From the sequence record NZ_CP104306.1: 64,000 nt of DNA. The stretch is one strand, 5' to 3'. Both the position numbers and the translations under genes were made by a program. Every line of letters starts with the position of its first letter. The stretch's first letter is position 1. The notes beneath the pieces are model-generated. The model saw only the letters and a list, made by a program, of their open reading frames with translations, did not search any database and had not been told where the DNA came from. Source of the DNA: a plasmid. Of the stretch, positions 1,211 to 14,431 are shown piece after piece.

Positions 1211-2425
1211 CTACCACAGCACATATTCGGATTGACGATCACGGACGAGTTCTACAAAGTCGCTAACCTTCATGATCTTTGCCTTGTATTCTGGCGGATA
1301 ACTCGCAAGGTATTCTTTTGGCACAATAAGTTGCACATTTTCTGATTCCATCTCTCGTAGCTGGTTCTTCGAGATACCCTGTTGCAGCGTTAATAAGTAC
1401 TTTGGGCTGTTTTTAAGTCGATCGGCTTCTGTGATGACTTGGCGCCACCGGTCCTTACATGTTGTCTTCACGGCCAGCGAGGTTAAACCTGCCACTGGAA
1501 ACGAGCTAAGCTTATATTTCTCGATAGATGGAAAGATGAAGTCAGGTTTCTTGTGCTCTTCAGTGATAGCCTGTGGTGTGTAGTGTACTTGGTTTCCGTC
1601 TAGGATCGCCGCCACATGCGATTCAAATCCTTTGCCGGCACGACTCTTACGGCGGTTTAGAATACTGTTAGCCACTGCAACAAAGTCCTCGACATTATTA
1701 AAACCTTTATTCATCACATCGCAATATCTGATTTGCTCCACGAACTTGAATAGCAAGTACTCCACGTTGGTCCAACTAACGATCTTACTGTCAGGATCCT
1801 TAGTGATGCGTTCTGTATGATCCAGCACGCGTTCTTCAATCTGCCTAGCCGTCTGCGACATCTGAGTGGTTGTTGGGAAATCACCAACGCTTTGCATCAA
1901 CTCCAGTGCGGCCTGCTGTAAGGCGTCTTGCAACTGTTCTTCCAGCGATTTGTTCTTGGTGATATGATCCGCTCCGATGATGCTGTTTGTCTGAGTTGAA
2001 TCAATACCGACGCCGGCCAAAAAATCCGTGATGGTGTCATCAGTATCGAAACGATAAACGGTCAGTTTATATGGTTGGTGCGCTACGAGTACAAAAAGTG
2101 AACCAGTATATTCGGGTAATATGAATTGATCGCCACGGCCCCAGCCAGTGATCCGCATCTCAGTCTTTGAGGGGTAGTAAATCACCGTCAGCTCGCGGAC
2201 ATCCTCTTGGTCTCCTTGTACAACTACTTCGACCTTACGCCGAATTGGCGCACCCGTCTTTGGGCGGTCGCCTTCAAAAAAAACACCAAACATGACGTTT
2301 CCTAGCAGAATGCCACTTTGGTGTGCCTTCGTCTCGCCACTATCATTGGCGGACATAAACTTGGTGTATGCGATCGGATGCGACTGTACGTCAACTACAG
2401 CTTGATTACAGAGTTCGGTTGCCAT
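1211..2425 (-). CDS. Type IIE restriction endonuclease, EcoRII family (404 aa)
   Basis: N-terminal FMSANDSGETKAHQSGILL resembles the EcoRII B3-like effector domain (RLSANDTGATGGHQVGLYI). C-terminal PD...(D/E)XK core is KPDFIFPSIEKYK. Length equals EcoRII. It lies 3 bp downstream of the C5-methyltransferase on the same strand. Confidence 0.8.
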   Translation of the reverse strand: MATELCNQAVVDVQSHPIAYTKFMSANDSGETKAHQSGILLGNVMFGVFFEGDRPKTGAPIRRKVEVVVQGDQEDVRELTVIYYPSKTEMRITGWGRGDQFILPEYTGSLFVLVAHQPYKLTVYRFDTDDTITDFLAGVGIDSTQTNSIIGADHITKNKSLEEQLQDALQQAALELMQSVGDFPTTTQMSQTARQIEERVLDHTERITKDPDSKIVSWTNVEYLLFKFVEQIRYCDVMNKGFNNVEDFVAVANSILNRRKSRAGKGFESHVAAILDGNQVHYTPQAITEEHKKPDFIFPSIEKYKLSSFPVAGLTSLAVKTTCKDRWRQVITEADRLKNSPKYLLTLQQGISKNQLREMESENVQLIVPKEYLASYPPEYKAKIMKVSDFVELVRDRQSEYVLW

Positions 2426-2428
2426 CGA

Positions 2429-3577
2429 CTACGCCTCTTTCATCAATAACTCAACGTCTTGTTGCTTACCCATATCCAGTTCGATTAACTTGCTCTGAAC
2501 CAACCGAGCTGCCTCAGTCATAATTGGCACTGCCACCGAGTTCCCGAATTGCTTATAGGCCTGCGTGTTGGAGACAGGAATTTTGAAGCTATCTGGGAAA
2601 CCCTGCAGCCGGGCGCATTCGCGCGGCGTTAAGCGGCGTGGGTTTTTTCCCGGTTGTGGAATAAGAATCTCACTGCCATCCTTGTAGTAGCGGGCAGACA
2701 GCGTCCGAGTGTGACTATCTAAGTCTGCCATACCATAGCCAAATCCGTTGCCGGCTTTACGGTGCTTTTCGGCATAGGCTTGGAGATAATTCCACAGCTT
2801 ATCACTTAGAGTGTACTTATCATCGACTTTGGGCTCAAGAATCTCGCGCAGCACCGGTTTGTGTACTGGCTTCTTCAAGTTGAACTCGAAGTCAACATAG
2901 CCGTAACGCCGGCGATCAAAGCCGACAATCACAATTCGTTCGCGATGTTGTGGTACGAAATCCTGTGCATCCAGAATGGCATAGTGCACATCGTAATCTA
3001 GTTCGTTGAGGCTTTCCATGATAATTTTGAATGTCCGGCCCTTGTCATGACTCTTAAGGTTTTTTACGTTCTCAAGAAAGATCGCTTTAGGCCGTTTTGC
3101 CTTGATGACCCGGCAAACATCAAAAAACAATGTGCCCTGCGTCTTATCTTGGAAGCCAGTGGCGCGGCCCATACTGTTTTTCTTTGATACGCCCGCAATG
3201 CTAAACGGCTGGCACGGGAAGCCAGCCACAAGAATATCGTGATCTGGAATCGACTTCTCATCAACTTTTGTGATATCGTCATCCGGCTGCACACCAAAAT
3301 TAGCGAGATACGTCTGCTGGCTATACTTGTTCCATTCATTCGAGTAAACAGATTGCGAGCCATTATTCTCAAATGCTAACCGTAGTCCACCGATCCCGGC
3401 GAACAGATCGATAAACGTGTAACCTGATTTGTTCTGTTTCATCGTATCGACCTTCCCGACGTACTTACACAACGCCATGGTCATGCTCTGCTGCAGCGTC
3501 TGCCCAGAGGCAACGGCTTTATCAACGAGCTTTTCATAGACGTCATCATCGACACGAAAATGCACTTGTTTAGTCAT
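2429..3577 (-). CDS. DNA cytosine-5 methyltransferase with an N-terminal ribbon-helix-helix-like extension
   Basis: Motifs FIDLFAGIGG (I), GFPCQPFS (IV), ENVKNL (VI) and QFGNSVAVP (X). The start is set at ATG 3575-3577, preceded by GGAGG. The six-frame ORF extends to 3646 without an RBS. The N-terminal VHFRVDDDVYEKLVDKAVASGQTLQQSMTMAL has a beta-strand, helix, helix (RHH) pattern. Confidence 0.85.
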   Translation of the reverse strand: MTKQVHFRVDDDVYEKLVDKAVASGQTLQQSMTMALCKYVGKVDTMKQNKSGYTFIDLFAGIGGLRLAFENNGSQSVYSNEWNKYSQQTYLANFGVQPDDDITKVDEKSIPDHDILVAGFPCQPFSIAGVSKKNSMGRATGFQDKTQGTLFFDVCRVIKAKRPKAIFLENVKNLKSHDKGRTFKIIMESLNELDYDVHYAILDAQDFVPQHRERIVIVGFDRRRYGYVDFEFNLKKPVHKPVLREILEPKVDDKYTLSDKLWNYLQAYAEKHRKAGNGFGYGMADLDSHTRTLSARYYKDGSEILIPQPGKNPRRLTPRECARLQGFPDSFKIPVSNTQAYKQFGNSVAVPIMTEAARLVQSKLIELDMGKQQDVELLMKEA

Positions 3578-3651
3578 TCTATACCTCCAGGGATTTCTTG
3601 GTACCTTATTATTCCCCATAATACGGCAATGACTAAAGAATGTCACGGTAA

Positions 3652-3960
3652 TTATTTCGCATACTGATTGATCTTATTCGGCCGAAAGCCAGACCAATAC
3701 TCAATCAAACGGCCTTCGTCATCGACGATCTTGACGAGTGGCAGTTGTTGAATGTGATATTTGGCCTTCAAACGCTCGACTTTATGCTGACTCCACTCAC
3801 GTTTACGCTGATCTTCTGCGCTTACATCAATGGAATTGCTTTTATCAGCATTGCCATAATAAGTATTCTGATACGGGTAACCCAGGCGATCAAACCACTT
3901 AGTTGTCATTTTACAAGCAGGGCAGTTCGGTTTGGTGTACAAAACAGCATGTGTTTTCAT
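3652..3960 (-). CDS. NrdH-like glutaredoxin-like redoxin (CPAC active site, with an internal insertion)
   Basis: N-terminal LYTKPNCPACK and C-terminal EYWSGFRPNKI match the NrdH signature WSGFRPD. Confidence 0.6.
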   Translation of the reverse strand: MKTHAVLYTKPNCPACKMTTKWFDRLGYPYQNTYYGNADKSNSIDVSAEDQRKREWSQHKVERLKAKYHIQQLPLVKIVDDEGRLIEYWSGFRPNKINQYAK

Positions 3961-3990
3961 TAATTTGATCTTCCTTTCCTTTTACCCTTG

Positions 3991-4350
3991 TTATGAGGGG
4001 GCAGGTAATCGCTGAATCAACATAGGTTCATCTATATCTAAATAAGTTTTTCGACTTGTGTGTAAGGTGTCACCAGTGCGTACCTGTGTATTGATCCAGC
4101 GAGTACAGTCCGCGTGATGTTCACCACGAAAGTAGACTTTACCAGAATTAAAGCCAACGACGGCGAATTTAGGCTGTACACAAGCAGCCGCCAATTTTTT
4201 AAGGTTAGAATCCGAAATGCTTTCCTCAGAGTTTAGCAAACGTCGCACAGTACGATCATTTATTTTAGATTGTCTGGCAAATTCTGGGTTGCTCAGATTG
4301 TTCTTATTGATGTAGTTCTGAACCATTTTACGAACAGAATCACGATCCAT
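3991..4350 (-). CDS. HTH (XRE-like) DNA-binding protein
   Basis: N-terminal LSNPEFARQSKINDRTVRRLLN is an HTH. The 3' half of the gene carries repeat copy B (4090..4147). Confidence 0.5.
   Translation of the reverse strand: MDRDSVRKMVQNYINKNNLSNPEFARQSKINDRTVRRLLNSEESISDSNLKKLAAACVQPKFAVVGFNSGKVYFRGEHHADCTRWINTQVRTGDTLHTSRKTYLDIDEPMLIQRLPAPS
4090..4147 (+). repeat. 58-bp direct repeat copy B (partner of 1148..1205)
   Basis: attgatccagcgagtacagtccgcgtgatgttcaccacgaaagtagactttaccagaa. Same orientation as copy A; together they bracket the restriction-modification cassette and the nrdH-like gene. Confidence 0.7.
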
Positions 4351-4823
4351 TAAATCAGACTCCTTCTATTGTAATAAACCATTGTTGCAGTTAATTGTAA
4401 CCCCGTACTTGCGTATTGATGGATGATGCATGAGACATATATGCCAAAAAGACTGTAGAGCTTAGTCCCATCAAGATAATCAAAGACAAAACCCAGCGTG
4501 TTCTTAATTTTATATGGAAGTCCTTTCTAATACATAGTGGTGGCCTTGCTGAGCAAATAACGCTCAGTAAGGCTTAGTTTGCGTAGGGACGGCGGGCCCT
4601 AGGCCGACCCGCACGCCCCGGCAACGCCTTGTCGTTTCCGGATAGGTAACTGTCAAGTCAAGTCTGTACCTAAACCCGATTGGTTGCCAGTTGTCGGCTA
4701 TCGTGCAGATCATGTAAGACTTGTGCATAAAGCTTGTGGCTACCGCCACGCGGGCAAGCCCGCAGGTGCCCTTTCTACTGCCAGTTTTTGCCTGGCTTTG
4801 ATTCCGCATTCAACCAGCAACAA

Positions 4824-4853
4824 AGCTGCTAAGGAACAAGTTCCTAAGCAGCT
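4824..4853. other. 30-bp near-perfect palindrome inside a GC-rich non-coding stretch (4560..4960)
   Basis: AGCTGCTAAGGAAC AAG TTCCTAAGCAGCT gives a 13-bp stem with one mismatch. No adjacent T-run on either strand, so it is not a canonical terminator. Another hairpin, GCGGGC AA GCCCGC, lies at 4750-4763. Confidence 0.4.
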
Positions 4854-5015
4854 CTAGCAGAAAAAACAAGGGCCGGGCAAAATTTTGTTCCGCAAAGAAC
4901 ACTCCACAAATTTTTGCCACTTTCGCTACGCTCACCCTTGCGTTTTCTGCCGTAGCTGGTGTGCCTGTTACATCAAAGGCGGCTTCAAAAACCGCCGGTA
5001 GAAAGGGTGTCAGCA

Positions 5016-5462
5016 ATGGAGAAATTACCATTTTACCTGCCAATGATTGAAGACGATGAGGAGAGTGTTTTTGCCAGTTGGCCAAATGGGCAAAGAACCC
5101 ACAATAAATTGAGTGAAGGGTTATACTCGTACATTCAAGAAATTGCTTTTAAAAGTCAAACGACCAGTCAAATTGAGAGAGACCGCTACGGTAACCAACG
5201 CCTAGCCTTTTATGCCAACGGTTGCGAAACACCTTATTACGTTACCGAAGACTTCCTATTTACGCCTAATCAAGCTCACGATGCAAAGAAGCTGTTAGTG
5301 ACAGCACTCATGCTAGGTGATAGCAAGCTGACAGCGGTTGTATCTGACCAGTTACTAGCTCAACTTTCTCCGAAGACACGAGCATTTGCAAAATATCAGC
5401 TCATCAACCAACCAGCGCAACAGTTTATGGATGAACACATCAGCATTCAGGTTATCAAATAG
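5016..5462 (+). CDS. Hypothetical protein (148 aa), first gene of a five-gene small-ORF operon
   Basis: ATG at 5016 is preceded by GAAAGGGTG. The ORF tracked from 4959 starts inside the GC-rich region without an RBS. Confidence 0.5.
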   Translation: MEKLPFYLPMIEDDEESVFASWPNGQRTHNKLSEGLYSYIQEIAFKSQTTSQIERDRYGNQRLAFYANGCETPYYVTEDFLFTPNQAHDAKKLLVTALMLGDSKLTAVVSDQLLAQLSPKTRAFAKYQLINQPAQQFMDEHISIQVIK

Positions 5463-5471
5463 GAGGCTACC

Positions 5472-5762
5472 ATGATTGATATTAGAAATACCTACAAACC
5501 TAATGTTCTGGAAGCTTGGATAAAGGAAACGAGAGAAGCCGGTAACTATGTGAGCGCCGAACTTATCCAGTTGCACGATGACCCACAACTAGGTAATGCC
5601 CTTGTGCTTGGCTTTCGCTTTGCTAAAACACCACGAGCACTTGTTGATGAAAACATAGTATTCAGCTTCACTCACGAAACTAGCGGCCCAGTTTTTTGGC
5701 AGTTGGTCGGTGTGGCGGAAGCGTACGCTAATGATTTCAATGAAGAACTAGCATTTGCATAA
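5472..5762 (+). CDS. Hypothetical protein (96 aa)
   Basis: RBS AGGAGG lies 6 nt upstream. Tightly spaced after the previous gene. Confidence 0.5.
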   Translation: MIDIRNTYKPNVLEAWIKETREAGNYVSAELIQLHDDPQLGNALVLGFRFAKTPRALVDENIVFSFTHETSGPVFWQLVGVAEAYANDFNEELAFA

Positions 5763-5775
5763 AGGAGTGTAAACA

Positions 5776-6225
5776 ATGACAAAAGGAAAGCTCTATCAAG
5801 TCAGCATTGACGAAATCGAATATCAACCGCACTTTATTATGGTTTACGCCAGTGAAGACGCTAAGGACAAAGACCTACAGCGGCTCGCAACAAACTTTAT
5901 TTTGAGTCAAAATCCAGAATTGCCAGAAAGTGCATTAGTCGATAGCGTCATTGTTGAACCACGTGACCCGAACGAGAAACCAGACGTTGTGGCCGAGGGA
6001 CTGCATGTCCCAACGCCTGCGTGGGGTGTCAAAATGGGCTTACTTTACGCACAGGCGGTTCACCATGCTACTTGCGATGACGATGAGTTTGATGAGGTGG
6101 CTTACGTTCGGGGCGAAACAAAGGCGAAACGATTTGAAACCGAGGCCGCCGCAAAAGAATTTGCTAAATGGCTCAACCCGAATTGTGAAGTTGTTCCACT
6201 GGAAGAAGGTGACGACCATGATTGA
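5776..6225 (+). CDS. Hypothetical acidic protein (149 aa, D/E-rich C-terminus EEGDDHD)
   Basis: RBS AAGGAG precedes the start. Net-acidic composition. Confidence 0.55.
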   Translation: MTKGKLYQVSIDEIEYQPHFIMVYASEDAKDKDLQRLATNFILSQNPELPESALVDSVIVEPRDPNEKPDVVAEGLHVPTPAWGVKMGLLYAQAVHHATCDDDEFDEVAYVRGETKAKRFETEAAAKEFAKWLNPNCEVVPLEEGDDHD

Positions 6226-6361
6226 CCACCAACAAGCACAAGTCGCATGGAGTGAAGTCATTGAGGAACTGGACAGCGATACCTTTAATCGCTTGCGTCA
6301 CGCGTTAGAACTCGTTGATGCTTATATTCGGCAAGGAACAGAAATCGAAAGAGGTCTTTAA
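6218..6361 (+). CDS. Hypothetical small protein (47 aa), translationally coupled (ATGATTGA overlap)
   Basis: ATG 6218 overlaps the upstream TGA stop. GAAGAAGG lies upstream. The tracked longer ORF from 5951 overlaps the previous gene and is rejected. Confidence 0.35.
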   Translation: MIDHQQAQVAWSEVIEELDSDTFNRLRHALELVDAYIRQGTEIERGL

Positions 6362-6363
6362 CC

Positions 6364-6753
6364 GTGAAAACTGCCTACGACGAAGTTGTGAAACAGCCAT
6401 GTGACAAACTCGCCCAGACCATGCAGGACATGACTTATTGTTACAACGAGACTGTGGTACCTAAGAAGCACTACAAGAAACTTCTGACGAAGCAACTTGA
6501 AGAGGTCGTGGCTGACAGCGTGGCTGTGAATATGGTCAATGCCTACTACAAAACACTTGCTGAATTCAACAAAGGTAATCGAGAGTGGTTCGTACTTGCT
6601 ATCTTGTGCATTGAATTAGGAGTTAAGCCTGACAAAGCCAGTGCGCAAGAATTAAGCGCCCTGCAGATGATTTCTAGCAACATTACTGGTAACCAAGCAC
6701 CGCTACTCAATCCAAACATCAAGAATGCCTTTGAAGGTGCTATCAAGGCTTAA
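6364..6753 (+). CDS. Hypothetical protein (129 aa), last gene of the operon
   Basis: GTG start with GAAAGAGG upstream. Followed by several hairpins. Confidence 0.5.
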   Translation: MKTAYDEVVKQPCDKLAQTMQDMTYCYNETVVPKKHYKKLLTKQLEEVVADSVAVNMVNAYYKTLAEFNKGNREWFVLAILCIELGVKPDKASAQELSALQMISSNITGNQAPLLNPNIKNAFEGAIKA

Positions 6754-6789
6754 AGAGTGCAAGCGCAATCTAGTCAGATTGTGCTTTTT

Positions 6790-6916
6790 CTGTTATAATG
6801 AGAATACAAACAGGGAGCACCCCCATAAGAGTGCTCCCCTAGCAGAGCCGTTTAAGACGGCGGTAACTATTAGGTTAAATAACCGTCAGCTAGCCAAAGC
6901 GAAGACGGTTATTTTT
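6790..6916 (+). ncRNA. Candidate small RNA: extended -10 promoter followed by three hairpins, the last with a T-run
   Basis: TGtTATAAT at 6790-6798. Hairpins GGGAGCAC..GTGCTCCC (6813-6838), GCCGT ttaag ACGGC, and AACCGTC..GACGGTT followed by ATTTTTC at about 6880-6916. The tracked 69-aa ORF here is unconvincing. Confidence 0.25.
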
Positions 6917-7091: not shown

Positions 7092-8297
7092 TTACTGTCT
7101 TGGTTGAGACACAGTTGGCTCATAAACTTCATTGTGCAAAACTAGGTGGAAGATCATTCTATTTAGACGACTCATAACCGCGACCGCAATCTTCTTGGTT
7201 CCCTTAGACTGAGAGGATTGCTTTTTCATTTGGTAGAAGTCGTTAAAGCGTGTCGGTCGATATGAGGACGCACTGATAATATTAATGACTGTACGGTACA
7301 AGACCTTTCTTGCCAAAGGGTTCCCACGTTTTCGGATACGCTGTTCGGCCGTATAGTCCCCAGATTGGTAAGTGGTTAAATCAATACCAATATACGCGTT
7401 AATGGCATTGGCACTATGAAATCGCCGAATATCGCCTAATTCCGCGATAATACACAACGCTGATTTAAGCGCAATCCCAGGAATTGTCGTTAAAATTGCA
7501 ACCTCAGGCAAGTTTGTACCAATTTTAGCCATCTCCTCAATTAAAGATTTTTTTGAGCGGTCGAGACGTTCAACTTCATATGCTAACTCGGTAACTCGCT
7601 TAAGCGCGTATGAATCAATATCTACTGCTGGCCCTGAACTTTTGGCCAACTCCAGGAGATGTTCAGCTAAATGCTGAGCCCGTTTAGGGCCCATATTCTT
7701 TGAAGTAGCTTTCAATATAATTGACGTTAATTCGGTGGAACTATGTTGTAACACCAGATATGGGTGTGGAAATATCTGGACAATGTGCCAGTATAAGGCC
7801 CCCTCAGTCCTACTTAGAAAATGTTCTATTTCCGGGAAAGTAAGCTGTAATTCATGATGAAGGCGATTCTTATTACGCACGACGTCGTCGTTGTGCTCTT
7901 GATAGATTCGATGTAGATCACGTAATTCTGTGTATTCAGGCTTTTCTTGAAACGATGGTGCAAAATTGTTTCTGGACATCGCTTCTGCCAGACCAACAGC
8001 GTCAACCGAATCTGTTTTGACAATTCTAAAACTGTCCATTACTTTCTTAGCTTTTAGGGGATTTATCTCAGTATACAGCCAACCGTTACGATGAAAAAAT
8101 GCGCGCCACGGTCGTGAGTAGATTCCTGTTGATTCAAATATAATCTTTGGTTCCCTAAAGCTGTTTAACTCATCTTCGAGTCGCTCAAACCCTTCACGAT
8201 TGCTTGATAGCTTAAATTCTTTGATAACTTGTCTATCAATCAAAACGGCCACATTAGCTGTGTGTTTACTGATATCAATACCAAATATGCATTCCAT
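7092..8297 (-). CDS. IS110-family transposase (DEDD recombinase)
   Basis: N-terminal MECIFGIDISKHTANVAV (RuvC-like) and C-terminal HSANAINAYIGIDLTTYQSG are typical of IS110. The start is chosen at ATG 8295-8297, preceded by AAAGGTGG. The tracked ORF extends to 8351. Confidence 0.85.
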   Translation of the reverse strand: MECIFGIDISKHTANVAVLIDRQVIKEFKLSSNREGFERLEDELNSFREPKIIFESTGIYSRPWRAFFHRNGWLYTEINPLKAKKVMDSFRIVKTDSVDAVGLAEAMSRNNFAPSFQEKPEYTELRDLHRIYQEHNDDVVRNKNRLHHELQLTFPEIEHFLSRTEGALYWHIVQIFPHPYLVLQHSSTELTSIILKATSKNMGPKRAQHLAEHLLELAKSSGPAVDIDSYALKRVTELAYEVERLDRSKKSLIEEMAKIGTNLPEVAILTTIPGIALKSALCIIAELGDIRRFHSANAINAYIGIDLTTYQSGDYTAEQRIRKRGNPLARKVLYRTVINIISASSYRPTRFNDFYQMKKQSSQSKGTKKIAVAVMSRLNRMIFHLVLHNEVYEPTVSQPRQ

Positions 8298-8540
8298 TTG
8301 ATACACCACCTTTTGAAGTTGTTTCACCGACTCACTCATCTCAATTTTCAATACACGGCGTCAAGCGCCAACACTCTTCGATCGAGTTCATTGATGAATC
8401 TGCGAAGTTGCCAGTTTTTTTTGCGACGTCTTTGCGCCAAAATAACCTCCGACATGTCAACTCCGTTACCACTGTACCAAAAAAGCTTAGTGGTGAATCA
8501 CAACCCCGTCGGATCATGGTTCATCACTAAGCTTAGAATG
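8298..8540 (-). ncRNA. Candidate IS110 bridge/guide RNA region (non-coding left end upstream of the transposase)
   Basis: IS110 elements encode a structured bridge RNA in their non-coding end (established knowledge). Here a 15-bp inverted repeat AAGCTTAGTGGTGAA ... TTCATCACTAAGCTT lies at 8483-8534. Confidence 0.3.
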
Positions 8541-8807
8541 TTTTTTTGCTGATTTTTAATCAGCTCAACAACTAATGCTATCAGGGCTACGACAAACGTG
8601 CCGAACCCTAGCATAAGCTGTAAAGCGTCCGAAATGGACACAAGGCTTCTCCTTTCGTTGGTATCGTGGTACGTTGGTTTTTACACCATAAGCACCACCT
8701 CCAATCTACGGAAGTCGCCACCGTCTTTAACTTTTCTGCCACGTCTAGTATAGCATATAATTGGCTTCGTTCCTAGAGGCGCAAGGCATACAGCAGTCTT
8801 GCTACCG

Positions 8808-8980: not shown

Positions 8981-11527
8981 TTACATACTTTGCTCTAGTC
9001 CTGATGCACGTTGTTTTTTCTGCTGATGTTGTGGCTTAACCGGCTGAGTTTGTTGATACTTCTGCTCATCTTCCTTGTCAACGGCATTGTACCCGTACTG
9101 TTTAATGAGATAGGCGCACTGTTGAGGATCGTTGGCTTCAAAGTAGCCCACAACTTTATCAGGCTGTTTAGTATCCACTAGCGCAAATTCATCCTGACCC
9201 TTATCAACTAGTTGGGCCGTTTTTCCATCCTGACGACGATAGGTTTGTTCTAACTGCTGATCCATTGTTGCTGGATGTTGGGCCAACTTGGCTAACTCAT
9301 TCCAGTCTTTAGCAATTTTAGTCACTGGCAGAATGCCATTATCAGCTTGATAGCGCGTGTTGTAGTAAGAGGACTTAGCCGCTAAGTGTTCTCGGTCATG
9401 ATCCTCAATACCGGGGTTTAATTTCTTTGTAATGGTATCCCAATCAGGCTGCTGCTCACTAGTGCGGTTAGCTTTGATGAACTTTGCCGCGGTTAGTAAA
9501 GCCTCATCTGAATTAAAGTTAGTTTTTCCTGGGTTGGGATCGATGAGCACGCTGCTTTTGGCAATGGCTTGTGGCAGCGGAAAAGACTGCTGGAAGTTCG
9601 TTGAAAGGTTGGTTGTTGCTTTAACTGCTGCTGCCAACTCACGCCAATCAATGCCCGCCTGATTCGCTGCTTGTTTTAAGTCTTGGTAAGTCGCCTGGGT
9701 GATCGCATTATCCTGTGGGAAAAGCGGCTTAAAGGTAGTTGCCTCGGCTTCGGTATTCGCTAAGATGGAATCCTGCAGCTTGTCATAAAGCTGATGACCG
9801 GCAGGGTCATTGTCGGAGCCAACATAAATAGTGGCTGGCAGTTGCCCTTTTGTTTTATACATATTGACCGCCATATTCACGACACTTTCAACTTTGGTAC
9901 CATCAACTGAGGCAATCATGCAATTCGTTAGCTCTGGGTGTTGTGTCCAGTAACTCAACGCGTCAATCGGTGACTCAAAGACATACAAGTCTTGAGGTTT
10001 CCCCAAGCTAAAATTGAAACCAAAATCAGATTGTGAGTTTGCCGCGATCTTTTTTTGAGTCCCACGTTTACCGTATTGTTTAAAATCAATTTCAGTGCCT
10101 TGAATACTAGCGCCAACTGCCTTACCGTTGCGTGCCCATTGAAAGATCAGATTGTTTTGTGAGTCCTGAAAAATGAGTCCCTTTTGGTACAGGCGGTCCA
10201 CTAGATGAGGATTAATCCCTCTGGCGATGGTGAGGTAATCCCGCGCTCGATCAAAGCTATCAGCTCGTTTCAAGTAGTTATGATAGGCTGCCTTCGGCGC
10301 GGTTTGAATCTTTGTTTCATCGTAGTGACCAGCGTTGAGAAACTTGACAGCCTGATAGAAGCCTTTCTGATCTAAAAAGGTGGTGGCGAATTCAATCGCA
10401 CCACCACCTAAATTCTGGGAGTTCCATTTCCATAGGTTCTTTTTAGCATCAATGACTAAAGAGTCGTGATCGACACCGCGGTAGTAATCGCGAGAATCCT
10501 CGGTGAGATCAATGCCGGCGTTGCGCGCAATATCCACTAACGACAATTTCCGTGCCCGATCAATTTCAGATTGCGTCAAACGCTCACGTTTACCGCTATT
10601 GAGATTGGTTGTTTGTTCCGGAGCATCGTTAAGCGTTGCTTCTGCGGTCTGTGCTTGATCAAAGCCCAAAGTTTGAGCGGCTTGATCAGACATCTCGATG
10701 GTATGCACACTGGCCTCATTAATCTCTTTGAGGGCTTGTGCCATCACTTTAGGATCCTTCGCCCAAGTGGCCACATATCCTAATGAATAGTCACCAGTGT
10801 CGATGCCAATGTTTTGCATGGCAATATAAGCGACGGATTCGGCTTGCGCTTCTTTCCAAGCGCGTGGTCGATCAGCAAATGCCTGACCAATGCCATGTAA
10901 CTGACTGTGGCCGTACTCATGAAACAGCGTCTTGAGTTTCATAGCCGCATCTGTTTCTTGTGGACTAATCACAATTTCTTGGGTAGACGGCCGAAAGAAA
11001 CCACGAACCCCCGGTTCATCAATAGGCGCTTCACTGACCTTAACGTGACCTTCGGTATTGATGGCATCAACGACAGCGTGATATAAACGATCCACGTTTT
11101 GGTGATCACCCAACCGTTCCTTAATAAAATCGTTTGCGGATAGTAAAGCTTTGCCCTTGGTTTGACTGACATCGAATACTGAGCCGTAGCGATAACCAAC
11201 AATTGCTCGTTCAGCGGTCGTTTTGTATTTGACCTGTTCCTCTGGCGTCAGCTTCTTAACAATTGGCATGGTGATCTTGATGGCGTGTTCACCCTTGCGA
11301 ATGTGACGACCTAATTTGTCCCACTGCTTAAAACCGGCCACCCGGGTCGCATTAGGATGCTGCATATTAATCAAGAGCACGTTGCGGACGGAGTAGCCAT
11401 GGAAGGCAGCGTTTTGCCGAAGGTACTGCTTAAACTTTCGGGTATCGGCAAGTGCGCTCAATTGTTCTGTGGCTCGCTGCGCCATCTCATGTTCCCAGAC
11501 TTTGATCTCAGCTTTAGTCCTCGCCAT
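8981..11527 (-). CDS. ArdC-N (DUF1738) / zincin HExxH / Toprim multidomain protein (LtrC-like anti-restriction / primase-like), 848 aa
   Basis: YSVRNVLLI...ATRVAGFKQWDKLGRHIRKGEHAIKI is an ArdC-N ssDNA-binding motif. FHEYGHSQLH is an HExxH metalloprotease motif. C-terminal FESPIDALSY ... YVGSDNDPAGHQ is Toprim (E ... DxD). The start is at MARTKAEI, with GGAGGAGG 9 nt upstream. Confidence 0.75.
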   Translation of the reverse strand: MARTKAEIKVWEHEMAQRATEQLSALADTRKFKQYLRQNAAFHGYSVRNVLLINMQHPNATRVAGFKQWDKLGRHIRKGEHAIKITMPIVKKLTPEEQVKYKTTAERAIVGYRYGSVFDVSQTKGKALLSANDFIKERLGDHQNVDRLYHAVVDAINTEGHVKVSEAPIDEPGVRGFFRPSTQEIVISPQETDAAMKLKTLFHEYGHSQLHGIGQAFADRPRAWKEAQAESVAYIAMQNIGIDTGDYSLGYVATWAKDPKVMAQALKEINEASVHTIEMSDQAAQTLGFDQAQTAEATLNDAPEQTTNLNSGKRERLTQSEIDRARKLSLVDIARNAGIDLTEDSRDYYRGVDHDSLVIDAKKNLWKWNSQNLGGGAIEFATTFLDQKGFYQAVKFLNAGHYDETKIQTAPKAAYHNYLKRADSFDRARDYLTIARGINPHLVDRLYQKGLIFQDSQNNLIFQWARNGKAVGASIQGTEIDFKQYGKRGTQKKIAANSQSDFGFNFSLGKPQDLYVFESPIDALSYWTQHPELTNCMIASVDGTKVESVVNMAVNMYKTKGQLPATIYVGSDNDPAGHQLYDKLQDSILANTEAEATTFKPLFPQDNAITQATYQDLKQAANQAGIDWRELAAAVKATTNLSTNFQQSFPLPQAIAKSSVLIDPNPGKTNFNSDEALLTAAKFIKANRTSEQQPDWDTITKKLNPGIEDHDREHLAAKSSYYNTRYQADNGILPVTKIAKDWNELAKLAQHPATMDQQLEQTYRRQDGKTAQLVDKGQDEFALVDTKQPDKVVGYFEANDPQQCAYLIKQYGYNAVDKEDEQKYQQTQPVKPQHQQKKQRASGLEQSM

Positions 11528-11762
11528 CTTCACCATCCTCCTCCCATGTAACGTTGTTTTCTGCACCAGGAACTGGTTTGATGATCGGCTCCAAAGCGTA
11601 TAACGGTCGATACTGATTGTCGGTAATCCGCTGCCAAGCGACCTGTCTCATTTTGATGGACGTTGGTTGCAAGCTAATAGTTGGATACTCATCTAATCTA
11701 TCAATGACAGGCAGCTCACTACCGAGCACTTGCATTTCATCTGCATAAATAGCTGGCATCAT
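11514..11762 (-). CDS. Small protein (82 aa) with acidic tail WEEDGEDGED; its last codons form the RBS of the ArdC-like gene
   Basis: Start MMPAIY is preceded by AAAGGAA. There is a 14-nt overlap with the downstream gene start. Confidence 0.4.
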   Translation of the reverse strand: MMPAIYADEMQVLGSELPVIDRLDEYPTISLQPTSIKMRQVAWQRITDNQYRPLYALEPIIKPVPGAENNVTWEEDGEDGED

Positions 11763-11800: not shown

Positions 11801-13045
11801 CTAGTAAAAGCGCGTCTGTTGTTCCTGTTTCTTCTTGTCTTTTTCGCGTTCGCGATCCTGATCAGCCTGGCGTCTTTGATATTCGCGTTTGGCTAACCGC
11901 TGTGCCTTGATATCGGCGCTGAAAATCTTTTGTAGGCCATTCAAGTGATTGGCTACTGATGGTTGATGCTGCGTTTTAGAGACTGCCTCCTGCTCAGAAC
12001 GATAAGCTGATATATCTTTTAAAATGCTGTTACCCATCCGGGCATACAGTTCATGTAATTTGTTATCGGTGTAGTCTTGCGCACGGTTAGCTTCTTTTGT
12101 GCCACTACCATACAAGGCTTCACGGAAACGTGTTTCTTGTGTGAGTAGTTGTTTAAATTCGCCCAACTCTTCTGGCTTACAACGCATCAAATAGTTTCGT
12201 GACATGGCATCTAACTGCTCACGATATGGCTGCATGGCATTGTTGTTGTACTTCCAAAGGCGGCGATCACGCGGCAAGCTTTTGACAAGCTCTTGATACC
12301 TAACGGCAAAGTCTAGGCTGCTCTGATGACGCCAAACAGAACGCTGATCGGGTTGCAGTCGTTGACGAATGAGGTCACTGATCCGTGCAAGTGAACGATC
12401 GCGATCAACCATTTCGTTAGCAAAGGCAGCTTTGAAATGGTTCAAGATCTTCTTGGGTACATAACCTTTGCGCTGCCATTCTTGATAGGTCTCACCGTGC
12501 CTACCTTCGACCGTAACTCGTTTCCATTCACGGGTAGGTTGCGGCTCCACAATGGCAACATGGATATGAATGTTGTCTGTGTTGCGGTGAATTGCAGCAG
12601 ACCAAATAGCTGAATGTGCCATACCCATCTTGCTGGTGAAGTCATGCATGGCGACCCGGGTAGCGTCCCGCAACTTGGCTTCATCTAATTGTTTGGTCTT
12701 CGGATTGTAGACATTGTTTTCAACTAGGAAGTCGTTACGGAAACTGAATACGGACTGCCACATGACTGACTGATGCTTTTGTGCCACGGTGAATTGTTTC
12801 TTTAACTGGACGCGTTGTGTTGGTGTCAGACGATCATATTGATCAGTGAAGATGCCGGAAGACTTTTTCGGATTTTCCATGTAGTGGTTGTAGCCGTCAA
12901 CTGATAGAATGTTTTGTTGGTCAAAGTGATCAATCCGAATCGCCTCGTCTCGATCAATGTAGTTGATGTAGCTGCCAAACTTTTTGGCATGGGCCGCGAC
13001 AAAATCAGTCACATTGACAATGCCAGGCGATACACGATTAGGCAT
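11801..13045 (-). CDS. Conjugative relaxase, MOBQ/MobA-MobL type (414 aa)
   Basis: Catalytic Tyr region FGSYINYIDRDEA near the N-terminus. Motif III is HRNTDNIHIHVAIV (HxDxD/NxHxH). Start MPNRVS has RBS GAGGTGGTGG. Confidence 0.8.
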   Translation of the reverse strand: MPNRVSPGIVNVTDFVAAHAKKFGSYINYIDRDEAIRIDHFDQQNILSVDGYNHYMENPKKSSGIFTDQYDRLTPTQRVQLKKQFTVAQKHQSVMWQSVFSFRNDFLVENNVYNPKTKQLDEAKLRDATRVAMHDFTSKMGMAHSAIWSAAIHRNTDNIHIHVAIVEPQPTREWKRVTVEGRHGETYQEWQRKGYVPKKILNHFKAAFANEMVDRDRSLARISDLIRQRLQPDQRSVWRHQSSLDFAVRYQELVKSLPRDRRLWKYNNNAMQPYREQLDAMSRNYLMRCKPEELGEFKQLLTQETRFREALYGSGTKEANRAQDYTDNKLHELYARMGNSILKDISAYRSEQEAVSKTQHQPSVANHLNGLQKIFSADIKAQRLAKREYQRRQADQDREREKDKKKQEQQTRFY

Positions 13046-13475
13046 CAGCACCACCACCTCGATGGTGTACTTGAGTCGTTTGGTGACGAATGTACTCCGT
13101 CTTAATTTGGTCACTGACAATCCTACGAGCAACCGTAGTTGGCTTCATTGTGTCATCGGGAATGGGTAAATTATCCCAGCCGTTTTGAACGACAACACCG
13201 TCAAACAGTTTCAACAAGACCAGCAAGTTACGGTCGATAAAGTTAATCTTTTTCTCAAGCGGGGCAAGTGCGTTCTGAACACTCTCGCTGACGTTAGAGG
13301 CACGTTCGTTAGCTTGGTCAAGTTGATTATTAAGCCGGTGCTCATCATCCAACAGTGACTTAATCGCTGCACTAAGGGTCTCAATTTGATGAGCCGCCAT
13401 ATAAGTTTTTAGCTCTTCATCTGAGGCTAACGCATCATCACTTGAGTCAACAAAAAATGTCTTCCTGGTTCGCAA
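13038..13475 (-). CDS. Relaxosome accessory protein candidate (about 145 aa)
   Basis: Overlaps the relaxase start by 8 nt. Coiled-coil-like. Start at TTG 13473-13475 after AGGAGGG. The tracked ORF extends to 13493. Confidence 0.45.
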   Translation of the reverse strand: MRTRKTFFVDSSDDALASDEELKTYMAAHQIETLSAAIKSLLDDEHRLNNQLDQANERASNVSESVQNALAPLEKKINFIDRNLLVLLKLFDGVVVQNGWDNLPIPDDTMKPTTVARRIVSDQIKTEYIRHQTTQVHHRGGGADA

Positions 13476-14290: not shown

Positions 14291-14431
14291 TACGTGTAGT
14301 GATTCCAAACTTACTCCACGTGAAAAAAACTTGAACGTGTAGTAAAACGCGTTTTACTACACGTGGATTATGCTTGTTGTGACAAGGGATAGCGCCGTTT
14401 ACGTGTAGTAAATGACGTTTTACTCCACCTG
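14291..14431. promoter_or_regulatory. oriT-like / operator inverted-repeat array: a perfect 30-bp palindrome plus two imperfect flanking copies
   Basis: ACGTGTAGTAAAACGCGTTTTACTACACGT at 14335-14364 is a perfect palindrome. Related units ACGTGTAGTGA..TTACTCCACGTG (14292-14322) and ACGTGTAGTAAATGACGTTTTACTCCACCTG (14401-14431). The array sits between the mob/RHH operon start and the end of the T4SS operon. Confidence 0.5.

What the first reader, a model, noticed from the sequence alone, without database searches (positions are those of the whole stretch)
5016..6753. Compact operon of five small unknown proteins, candidate anti-defence / establishment genes
Five tightly packed or overlapping genes (148, 96, 149, 47 and 129 aa) with good RBSs and no recognisable domains. 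One is strongly acidic, a possible DNA mimic. The operon lies in a block bounded by the R-M cassette and IS110, roughly 8 kb from the oriT-like palindromes (14291..14431). Leading-region islands of conjugative plasmids typically carry anti-restriction or anti-CRISPR genes of this kind; transfer polarity here is not established.
Basis: inference. Interest (0 to 1): 0.65.

Follow-up and report, generated by a model that had tools for sequence, protein, structure and literature searches.

The report
Hairpin-gated small-gene operon on lactobacillus plasmid
Five real but function-unknown small genes on a Lacticaseibacillus conjugative plasmid sit behind a highly conserved 470-base hairpin-forming leader that looks like the "establishment gene" control regions of Bacillus plasmid pLS20. 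They are therefore plausible helpers for plasmid establishment after transfer, but they are not in the part of the plasmid that enters the new cell first.

Summary
Five co-oriented genes lie at exactly 5016-6753: g1 148 aa, g2 96, g3 149, g4 47, g5 129. They have Shine-Dalgarno sites, 2-13 nt spacers or an ATGA overlap, and a terminator. dN/dS is 0.05-0.15 for g1, g2, g3 and g5. No Pfam, PHROG, NCBIfam, PADLOC or PDB match exists, and the AlphaFold models were poor.

It is GC-rich, has no sigma-70 promoter, and folds at -105 kcal/mol as DNA (z -7). Its 3' half is a roughly 240-nt nested hairpin that pairs an anti-SD with the g1 SD. It matches the published description of pLS20 EGeRS1 elements in every feature except sequence.

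The relaxase is MobL, the pLS20 family. By homology the transferred strand is the + strand, so the operon enters late and as its sense strand. That argues against a leading-region or ssDNA-promoter reading.

Support for an establishment or anti-defence role is contextual only:
- Cassette mosaicism, with an orphan SPPY methyltransferase replacing g4-g5 in sister plasmids.
- Constant position at the end of the transfer operon.
- g5 homologues beside ssb, ArdC and AbiE on about 500 Enterococcus plasmids.

Function remains untested.

The parts
3991..4350 (-). Divergent XRE-type HTH gene (119 aa), first gene of the opposite operon. It is a candidate repressor of the locus.
   Evidence: Pfam HTH_3, E = 4e-4. 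It is conserved next to the leader, either directly or behind a lipoprotein nuclease gene, in relatives.
4540..4771 (+). 5' half of the leader ('el5'): a GC-rich stretch with several short stem-loops.
   Evidence: GC is 0.52-0.56 per 100 nt against 0.435 for the window. It occurs separately from the 3' half in some plasmids.
4769..5007 (+). 3' half of the leader ('el3'): a roughly 240-nt nested hairpin. The base pairs anti-SD CCCTTTC (4769-4775) with the g1 SD GAAAGGG (5001-5007).
   Evidence: Nested inverted repeats I1, I2, I3 and I5. DNA fold z is -5.1 (+ strand) and -5.65 (- strand). Across 20 variants there are 82 pairs, 98.5% of cells are paired, and 3 pairs show compensatory changes. It is more conserved than the genes it precedes.
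5016..5462 (+). g1, 148 aa, pI 5.3. An orphan family found in Lacticaseibacillus.
   Evidence: Its C-terminal tail is shared with an alternative 191-aa first gene in other plasmids.
5472..5762 (+). g2, 96 aa, pI 4.6. An optional cassette, absent or frameshifted in some plasmids.
5776..6225 (+). g3, 149 aa, pI 4.5, net charge -17. It is the constant core gene of the operon.
   Evidence: It is present in every intact variant. Only 13 cluster representatives match among 1.84 billion proteins. The PGAP name 'nitroreductase' is unsupported.
6218..6361 (+). g4, 47 aa, acidic and helical, translationally coupled to g3 through an ATGA overlap.
   Evidence: It is annotated in RefSeq relatives. The coding evidence is weak, with dN/dS 0.5.
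6364..6753 (+). g5, 129 aa, all-helical, pI 7.6. It has the widest family of the five.
   Evidence: Homologues at 45-51% identity on 513 Enterococcus plasmids. dN/dS is 0.05. The AlphaFold model has pLDDT 62 and no Foldseek match.
6761..6792 (+). Intrinsic terminator of the operon.
   Evidence: 11-bp stem followed by a T-run.
6796..6881 (+). RatA-like antitoxin RNA of a type I toxin-antitoxin pair, which marks the 3' border of the module.
   Evidence: Rfam RF01776, 55.4 bits against a gathering score of 49. Its promoter is TAGTCA-17-TATAAT at 6771-6799.
8540..8641 (-). Holin-like type I toxin ORF, separated from its antitoxin RNA by the IS110 insertion.
   Evidence: tblastn with the annotated toxin of pE1-1, E = 2e-6. 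It overlaps the Rfam rli28 hit at 8572-8762.

Best explanation
The locus is a plasmid accessory module of the 'establishment operon' type. It consists of a roughly 470-bp GC-rich, strongly folding leader (4540-5015) placed directly before the ribosome-binding site of a cassette array of small, mostly acidic proteins (g1-g5). The module sits at the far end of a pLS20-like (MobL relaxase) transfer operon and converges on it.

**Shown**
- The genes are real and under purifying selection.
- The gene set is swapped between plasmids, while the leader and g3 stay.
- The leader is the most conserved segment. Its giant hairpin is maintained, with a few compensatory changes, and it pairs an anti-SD with the g1 SD.
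- No sigma-70-like promoter is present in the leader.

**Inferred**
- In an established plasmid the leader keeps the operon silent, by blocking read-through as shown for pLS20 EGeRS1-B and by masking the SD. The divergent XRE repressor may contribute.
- After transfer and second-strand synthesis, in a cell that lacks the repressor or an unknown factor, the operon is expressed briefly.
- Its products then act on recipient barriers such as restriction, or on early DNA processing.
- Transcription from incoming single-stranded DNA is unlikely, because the transferred strand is inferred to be the sense strand.
For: **Gene reality.** ORFs, SD sites and coupling; dN/dS 0.05-0.15.

**Leader properties.**
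- GC 0.52-0.56 against 0.435 for the window.
- A 491-nt stretch folds at -105.4 kcal/mol as DNA (z -7.2) and -194.8 as RNA (z -6.3).
- pLS20 EGeRS1-B at the same length folds at -108.3 kcal/mol (z -7.0).
- In both predicted folds the big hairpin is closed by CCCTTT...TTTTTG pairing with CAAAAA...AAAGG, adjoining or overlapping the RBS.
- No promoter scores 8/12 or better inside the hairpin on either strand.
- Structure across 20 variants: 82 pairs, 98.5% of cells paired against 41-51% in slid controls, and 16 compensatory cells reached by 0 of 500 shuffles.
- Leader nucleotide identity is 99%, 96% and 90% in plasmids where g1 is 94%, 77% or absent and g3 is 98%, 83% or 69%.

**Published EGeRS1 description (PMC8708921).**
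- 420-750 bp, 51% against 38% GC, many inverted repeats.
- Directly upstream of an RBS, with no sigma-A promoter.
- Blocks read-through only in its native orientation.
- Operons are variable, opposite in orientation to the conjugation operon, and include methylases, ArdC and nucleases.

**Relaxase.** Pfam MobL, 1e-112.

**Synteny.** The module converges on the ArdcN-DUF3991-Toprim and relaxase genes, with a type I toxin-antitoxin pair between them, in plasmids with different relaxase clades.

**Cassette swaps.** An SPPY methyltransferase is coupled to g3 in two genera. There is an alternative 191-aa first gene.

**g5 homologues.** They lie beside ssb, ArdC-like, toprim, topB, AbiEi/Eii and Y-family polymerase genes in Enterococcus, again behind a strongly folding, GC-elevated leader with z -11 to -12. 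One also lies beside LexA-like, UmuC and YolD genes.
Against: - No protein shows similarity to any known anti-restriction, anti-CRISPR or other anti-defence family.
- The two structure models are low confidence, pLDDT 41 and 62. The one Foldseek search found nothing at E <= 0.001; the best hit was E = 2.
- The leader has no detectable sequence homology to pLS20 EGeRS1. blastn and nhmmer found nothing. In the Smith-Waterman test, 83 of 500 shuffles scored as well. The shared 23-mer is at chance level. The likeness is therefore of design, not demonstrated descent.
- The function of EGeRS1 itself is unknown, and the 'establishment' role of its operons is largely inferred.
- g2 and g5 are frameshifted or missing in several plasmids, so they are dispensable.
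- The module's neighbours here include a complete R-M system, so a defence or cargo role is not excluded.
- T-strand polarity rests on one experimentally studied homologue.
- In the Enterococcus plasmids the g5 operon is co-directional with the ArdC/toprim genes, not convergent.
Confidence: 0.45

Rival explanations
1. The operon would be a leading-region anti-defence island transcribed early from the incoming single strand, with the upstream hairpin acting as an Frpo-like ssDNA promoter.
For: There is a long imperfect hairpin directly upstream and no double-stranded promoter. If the - strand were the transferred strand, it would be the template for these + strand genes and would leave oriT towards them. 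The - strand carries a TAGCGA motif in an unpaired bulge, read by eye from the fold.
Against: The relaxase is a MobL homologue. [quoted passage not shown] The pLS20 authors rejected ssDNA promoters for EGeRS1 on the same grounds (PMC8708921). No -35/-10 pair is found in either hairpin arm. G·T against A·C positions show no strand bias, 8 against 8 by hand count on the table. The operon is on the relaxase side of oriT.
Confidence: 0.1
2. The leader is mainly a single-strand DNA signal, a single-strand origin or priming site for complementary-strand synthesis on the transferred strand. Under this reading the five proteins assist early DNA processing rather than counteracting defence.
For: The fold is as stable in DNA as in RNA terms. 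The element is conserved at the nucleotide level beyond what its stems require. It lies near the inferred 3' end of the T-strand, where a priming site is most useful. The hairpin base is a repeated IS110 target. The neighbouring genes are a primase fusion here and ssb/toprim genes in Enterococcus.
Against: No match to known sso consensus elements was established. The SD/anti-SD pairing and the position flush against the RBS point to control of the downstream genes. In pLS20 the element blocks transcription in an orientation-dependent way in double-stranded chromosomal context. In pLC1-type plasmids the inner hairpin is inverted while the operon is retained.
Confidence: 0.15
3. The operon is cargo unrelated to transfer. 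It could be a small defence or abortive-infection system, or a regulatory or maintenance module of the plasmid, that merely occupies a recombination-prone spot next to the transfer genes.
For: It is flanked by mobile and defence-type genes: an EcoRII-type R-M system, IS110, IS5 and a type I toxin-antitoxin pair. The content is mosaic and some members decay. The families are narrow and host-restricted.
Against: There is no PADLOC hit. The position relative to the relaxase/primase operon is constant across relaxase clades and across genera. Of 60 plasmids carrying the region, 55 are typed mobilizable or conjugative. The leader is conserved and elaborate. Variants carry an orphan methyltransferase rather than a restriction enzyme.
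Confidence: 0.2

Closest known systems
EGeRS1-preceded establishment operons of pLS20-family plasmids (Val-Calvo et al. 2021, PMC8708921)
   Same: - The leader is long (about 470 bp against 420-750 bp), GC-enriched, full of inverted repeats, flush against the first RBS and without a sigma-A/sigma-70 promoter.
- Folding energy at 491 nt is nearly identical, -105 against -108 kcal/mol as DNA.
- In both predicted folds the giant hairpin is closed by CCCTTT.../...AAAGG, adjoining or overlapping the RBS.
- Both are followed by short operons of small, mostly unknown proteins that vary between related plasmids and include methyltransferases.
- The operons run opposite to, and lie beyond the end of, a conjugation operon with a MobL relaxase.
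- By inference, the transferred strand is the sense strand in both.
   Different: - No detectable sequence similarity of leader or proteins.
- One copy per plasmid here against four or five in pLS20.
- The host family is Lactobacillaceae, not Bacillus.
- A divergent XRE gene adjoins the leader here.
- No ardC gene lies inside the operon. Instead an ArdC N-domain is fused to the primase in the transfer operon.
Frpo/ssi single-strand promoters and leading-region anti-defence islands of F-like and IncI plasmids (Masai and Arai 1997, from my own knowledge; Samuel et al. 2024, PMC11541004)
   Same: A hairpin-forming non-coding element lies upstream of small accessory genes associated with conjugation. 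Methyltransferase, ssb and toxin-antitoxin genes occur in the wider neighbourhood or in variants.
   Different: The inferred polarity puts the operon at the trailing end, with the sense strand transferred. No promoter hexamers are present in the stem. The element is longer and GC-rich. MOBP2 elements showed no leading-region enrichment in that survey.
Repressor-gated establishment genes of p576 (EGeRS2/Reg576, PMC6294495) and Aca-controlled anti-CRISPR operons
   Same: A small DNA-binding protein is encoded next to the operon, which could give a burst of expression in a naive cell followed by shut-off.
   Different: Those systems have strong canonical promoters with defined operators. None is seen here. 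The regulator here is XRE-type and divergent, not RHH-type and inside the regulon.

Membership tests
EGeRS1-type establishment regulon (pLS20 family) | A conserved non-coding region of 400-750 bp immediately upstream of the RBS of the first gene. | tested here: met
   The conserved block is 4540-5015 and the SD lies at 5001-5007 inside its last stem.
EGeRS1-type establishment regulon (pLS20 family) | GC content clearly above the plasmid mean, with multiple inverted repeats giving a very stable predicted fold. | tested here: met
   GC is 0.52-0.56 against 0.435. There are eight inverted-repeat pairs. The fold is -105.4 kcal/mol as DNA and -194.8 as RNA, with z -7.2 and -6.3. EGeRS1-B gives -108.3, z -7.0.
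EGeRS1-type establishment regulon (pLS20 family) | Sequence identity above 60% to pLS20 EGeRS1, the criterion the authors used. | tested here: not met
   blastn E is at least 0.8. nhmmer finds no hit in the element. In the local-alignment test, 83 of 500 shuffles scored as well.
EGeRS1-type establishment regulon (pLS20 family) | No constitutive sigma-A promoter, and orientation-dependent blocking of read-through. | tested here: inconclusive
   No promoter-like site scores 8/12 or better in the hairpin, and only a weak 9/12 site occurs in the 5' half. Terminator-like stems are present. Blocking of read-through needs a reporter assay.
EGeRS1-type establishment regulon (pLS20 family) | Multiple copies, each heading an operon, clustered on a plasmid with a pLS20-type conjugation operon. 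| tested here: not met
   There is a single copy in the 64-kb window. The conjugation operon is of the pLS20 kind, with a MobL relaxase and pLS20_p028-family and VirD4/VirB4 genes.
Leading-region anti-defence island (Samuel et al. 2024) | Located on the side of oriT opposite the relaxase, among the first genes to enter. | tested here: not met
   The operon lies beyond the 3' end of the relaxase-primase operon, on the relaxase side of the oriT-like region. Polarity is inferred from pLS20 (PMC5313138).
Leading-region anti-defence island (Samuel et al. 2024) | Genes oriented so that the T-strand is their template. | not testable with these tools
   The nic strand of this plasmid is unknown. By homology to RelLS20 the T-strand would be the sense strand, in which case the feature is not met.
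Leading-region anti-defence island (Samuel et al. 2024) | Contains recognisable anti-defence, SSB, methyltransferase or SOS-inhibitor genes. | tested here: not met
   None is recognisable in this window's operon. A methyltransferase is present only in variant plasmids.
ArdA/Ocr-type DNA-mimic anti-restriction proteins | Sequence or fold similarity to ArdA or Ocr, with an elongated acidic surface. | tested here: inconclusive
   g3 is acidic, with net charge -17. It has no profile or PDB hit, and the model is unusable at pLDDT 41.5.
Nitroreductase (the RefSeq name for g3) | A nitroreductase or FMN-binding domain. | tested here: not met
   No Pfam or NCBIfam hit at E <= 1.

The most novel reading that the evidence does not exclude
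The giant GC-rich hairpin leader that closes over the first ribosome-binding site may be a general and so far unrecognised control device of conjugative plasmids across Firmicutes. Examples would be Bacillus EGeRS1, this Lacticaseibacillus element, and a third version on hundreds of Enterococcus faecium plasmids. It would gate a fast-evolving pool of establishment or anti-defence cassettes. g1, g2, g3 and g5 would then be four new anti-defence or establishment protein families. The leader would sense the newly arrived state of the plasmid, through single-strandedness, absence of a plasmid factor, or an RNA switch, and not work as a classical promoter.
Probability: 0.3. Interest if true: 0.75.

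Novelty: new variant of a known kind. Interest (0 to 1): 0.5.

Why it matters
How Gram-positive conjugative plasmids time their establishment genes is largely unknown. The EGeRS1 mechanism of pLS20 has not been explained in the literature I could search.

This work finds the same design, without sequence similarity, in dairy and probiotic Lacticaseibacillus plasmids and in clinical Enterococcus faecium plasmids. That points to a common solution that can be dissected in several hosts. It also marks the downstream orphan genes, including a g3-methyltransferase pair, as candidates for new anti-restriction or establishment functions.

It shows as well that the 'leading region' rule should not be applied to MobL/MOBP2 plasmids without mapping the nick.

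Tried and rejected
- **Profile searches.** Pfam, PHROGs, NCBIfam and PADLOC on all five proteins gave only noise, with the best hit BrxE at E = 0.0055.
- **PDB sequence search.** g1, g3 and g5 returned nothing.
- **Exhaustive HMM search with a g3 alignment.** It found 13 proteins. The two long hits are repeat proteins with summed scores. One carries a weak G2P_X_C signal and was not considered meaningful.
- **AlphaFold.** g3 gave pLDDT 41.5 and g5 gave 62.2. Foldseek of g5 against the PDB had its best hit at E = 2.
- **Comparison with pLS20 establishment proteins.** tblastn found nothing.
- **Homology of the leader to EGeRS1.** blastn, nhmmer and a shuffle-controlled local alignment were all negative. 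A shared 23-mer, ACAAGGGCCG...TTTTGT, looked promising. A scan of 185,579 genomes returned 14 stretches of DNA against about 9 expected by chance, and only the Bacillus and Lacticaseibacillus loci were real. I treat it as chance.
- **Rfam.** No family matches the leader.
- **Promoter search.** Neither strand nor either hairpin arm holds a promoter.
- **Strand bias of wobble against A·C positions.** There is none.
- **Invertible promoter switch.** I rejected this reading of the inner hairpin. The inverted form is seen only in the pLC1 lineage, which has an adjacent IS110, and no promoter lies inside.
- **Inhibitor of the neighbouring nuclease.** I rejected this role for g3. The nuclease has a lipoprotein signal peptide and is absent from this window.
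Full report
**What the window is**

The region 4300-7100 matches 60 plasmids at 89-96% nucleotide identity: 57 from Lacticaseibacillus and 3 from Lactiplantibacillus. Of these, 55 are typed mobilizable or conjugative. The first 25 kb is collinear with L. paracasei plasmids that carry a pLS20-like transfer operon with VirD4, VirB4 and pLS20_p028-family genes.

In the window that operon runs on the - strand from about 34.8 kb down to 8981. It ends with three small genes, a relaxase (11801-13132) and an 861-aa ArdC-N/DUF3991/Toprim fusion (8981-11566).

**The observation**

All five ORFs are as described: 5016-5462, 5472-5762, 5776-6225, 6218-6361 and 6364-6753, on the + strand. Each has a purine-rich SD. 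Spacers are 9, 13 and 2 nt, and g3 and g4 overlap by ATGA. A terminator hairpin follows at 6761-6792.

Comparison with relatives gives dN/dS of 0.15 (g1), 0.11-0.12 (g2), 0.10-0.13 (g3) and 0.05 (g5, at dS 1.46). These four are genuine genes under purifying selection. g4 has too few informative sites, with dN/dS 0.5.

g3 is strongly acidic, with pI 4.5 and net charge -17. g2 and g4 are also acidic, and g5 is neutral.

**What the proteins are**

- Nothing scores below E = 0.005 in Pfam, PHROGs, NCBIfam or PADLOC, and nothing in PDB sequences for g1, g3 and g5.
- The RefSeq name 'nitroreductase' for g3 has no profile support.
- g1, g2 and g3 are very narrow families. g3 has 13 cluster representatives among 1.84 billion proteins. 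g1 is found essentially only in Lacticaseibacillus.
- g5 is wider. Homologues at 45-51% identity occur on 513 Enterococcus plasmids and in one Listeria record.
- AlphaFold models were poor, with pLDDT 41.5 for g3 and 62.2 for g5. Foldseek of g5 against the PDB gave no match better than E = 2.

**The operon is a cassette array**

Across annotated plasmids and metagenome contigs the gene content changes while the frame stays.
- g1-g2-g3-g4-g5 occurs here and in pN1115.
- g1-g3-methyltransferase occurs in pE1-1.
- 191aa-g3-g4'-g5 occurs in pBO44 and L1 p2.
- g2-g2'-g3-methyltransferase occurs in a Lactiplantibacillus argentoratensis plasmid.
- g5 occurs alone in pFAM18149.23.
- Several copies have a frameshifted g2 or g5.

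The 292-aa replacement protein has motif I (FSGGGTG) and motif IV (SHPPY), and it hits a Thermus modification methylase in the PDB at E = 7e-5. It is coupled to g3 by the same ATGA overlap. No restriction gene was seen in the operon or among its annotated neighbours in those two plasmids, so I call it an orphan.

g3 is the constant member of the array.

In every contiguous example the module converges on the end of the relaxase/primase operon, with a type I toxin-antitoxin pair between them. This holds in plasmids whose relaxase belongs to another clade (MobC plus a 736-aa relaxase) and in pLC1.

**The leader**

- It is GC-rich, 0.52-0.56 per 100 nt against 0.435 for the window.
- It contains eight inverted-repeat pairs.
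- It has no sigma-70-like promoter in its 3' half on either strand. The only site is a weak 9/12 match in the 5' half.
- A 491-nt stretch folds at -105.4 kcal/mol as DNA (z -7.2) and -194.8 as RNA (z -6.3).
- The 3' half (4769-5007) is one nested hairpin of about 240 nt. Its base pairs CCCTTTC (4769-4775) with the g1 SD GAAAGGG (5001-5007).

On 20 distinct variants, the consensus fold has 82 pairs and 98.5% of cells are paired. Slid controls give 41-51%. Three pairs show compensatory double changes, covering 16 cells, a count reached by 0 of 500 shuffles. Most pairs are invariant, so the support from covariation is modest.

The element is more conserved than the genes it precedes. Its nucleotide identity is 99%, 96% and 90% in plasmids where g1 is 94%, 77% or replaced and g3 is 98%, 83% or 69%.

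**Comparison with pLS20**

Val-Calvo et al. (PMC8708921) described EGeRS1 elements in pLS20-family plasmids. Their features are:
- 420-750 bp, 51% against 38% GC, with multiple inverted repeats.
- Predicted energies of -71 to -110 kcal/mol (DNA) and -152 to -220 kcal/mol (RNA).
- Located immediately upstream of an RBS.
- No sigma-A promoter.
- Blocking of read-through only in the native orientation.
- Heading clustered, highly variable operons of small unknown proteins, plus ArdC, methylases and nucleases, that run opposite to the conjugation operon.

Folding EGeRS1-B at the same length as the window element gives -108.3 kcal/mol, z -7.0. In that predicted fold its large hairpin is closed by CCCTTTTTTT...TTTTTG pairing with CAAAAAC...AAAAAAAGG, just upstream of the RBS, which mirrors the window's CCCTTTCTAC...TTTTTG / CAAAAAC...GTAGAAAGGG.

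The window's relaxase is a MobL-family protein (Pfam 1e-112), the family founded by the pLS20 relaxase. Sequence homology of the leader to EGeRS1 could not be shown, and only one copy is present in the window. I therefore describe it as working like EGeRS1 but do not file it as a member.

A third instance of the design appears in E. faecium conjugative plasmids. The operon holding the g5 homologue is preceded by a 450-bp GC-elevated region with a DNA fold of -100 kcal/mol, z -11 to -12. That operon lies next to ArdC-like, toprim, topB, AbiEi/Eii, ssb, a holin-like toxin and Y-family polymerase genes.

**Polarity**

[quoted passage not shown] Transferred to this window by homology, which is an inference and not a measurement, the T-strand is the + strand and leaves the oriT region rightwards.

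The operon would then enter after at least 54 kb of DNA, about 7.5-9 kb before the end of transfer, and as its sense strand. This is the same argument the pLS20 authors used against ssDNA promoters.

It also agrees with the survey of Samuel et al., in which MOBP2 elements showed no anti-defence enrichment on the side of oriT opposite the relaxase (PMC11541004). The leading-region framing is therefore not supported. An establishment role does not depend on it.

**Most likely mechanism**

Shown:
- A conserved structured leader that masks the first SD in its predicted fold.
- No recognisable promoter.
- A swap-prone set of small genes under selection.
- A fixed place at the end of the transfer operon.

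Inferred:
- The leader, possibly with the XRE protein, keeps the operon off in resident plasmids.
- Expression is released briefly in a new host after second-strand synthesis.
- The products then blunt restriction or other barriers, or help early DNA processing.

I put this at 0.45. The rivals are:
- A priming or sso role for the leader (0.15).
- Unrelated cargo or defence (0.2).
- The original leading-region ssDNA-promoter model (0.1).

**Verdict**

This is a real operon with a well-supported but untested link to plasmid establishment. The most informative feature is the leader, not the proteins. It is a new variant of a known but poorly understood kind. I score interest at 0.5.

Noticed in passing
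window 6796-6881 (+), 7092-8351 (-), 8540-8641 (-), 8572-8762 (-): An IS110-family element sits exactly between a RatA-like antitoxin RNA and its holin-like type I toxin ORF. The toxin ORF lies under an Rfam rli28 hit. The insertion splits a convergent toxin-antitoxin pair that is contiguous in the IS-free plasmid pN1115. Whether the toxin is still controlled is unknown.
   Followed up: partly
window about 4772 (base of the leader hairpin); L055 (pLC1) about 12080-12320; contigs L028, L030, L033, L039, L041, L046: The same IS110 end (...TTTAAGCTTAGTGGA) abuts the hairpin base (|TTTCTAC) in pLC1 and at least six metagenome contigs. In this window the IS110 copy sits instead at the terminator between the toxin-antitoxin genes. 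Hairpin bases appear to be preferred IS110 targets in these plasmids.
   Followed up: partly
L055 (NC_013200.1 pLC1) 11841-12077; contigs L029 and L032: The inner roughly 195 bp of the leader hairpin is inverted between its 22-nt arms, relative to g1, and the arms have become perfect repeats. The inverted form is seen only in the lineage with IS110 inserted next to it, so it probably reflects a single event and not a switch.
   Followed up: partly
L026 8339-8790 and L027 8069-8525 (E. faecium plasmids): A 450-bp GC-elevated, extremely structured region (DNA MFE about -100 kcal/mol, z -11 to -12) precedes the small-gene operon that contains the g5 homologue. That operon lies next to ssb, AbiE, ArdC-like, toprim and topB genes. 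The g5 homologue itself occurs on about 500 Enterococcus plasmids. Only these two were folded.
   Followed up: partly
window 5776-6225: g3 is named 'nitroreductase' in many RefSeq records. No nitroreductase domain is detectable, so the name is a propagated misannotation.
   Followed up: yes
window 8981-11566 (-): The last gene of the transfer operon encodes an 861-aa fusion of an ArdC N-terminal (ssDNA-binding, anti-restriction-type) domain with DUF3991 and Toprim primase domains. The plasmid's recognisable anti-restriction-like module is therefore inside the transfer operon.
   Followed up: no
window 1211-4350 (-): An XRE HTH gene, a glutaredoxin-like gene, a C5 cytosine methyltransferase and an EcoRII-type endonuclease are packed on the - strand, divergent from the operon. 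In sister plasmids the R-M genes are absent, or a secreted lipoprotein DNA/RNA non-specific endonuclease lies between the HTH gene and the leader.
   Followed up: partly
protein P0052 (L. paracasei, contig of 3.1 Mb): This is an in-frame fusion of the N-terminal 50 residues of g1 with the C-terminal 37 residues of g3. It is apparently a deletion derivative of the operon carried on a chromosome-sized contig.
   Followed up: no
protein P0057 against g3 residues 75-137: An 809-aa repeat protein from the representative library matches the middle of g3 seven times (P..WG.KLG motif). It carries a weak Pfam G2P_X_C signal from summed scores. I judged it too weak to interpret.
   Followed up: partly
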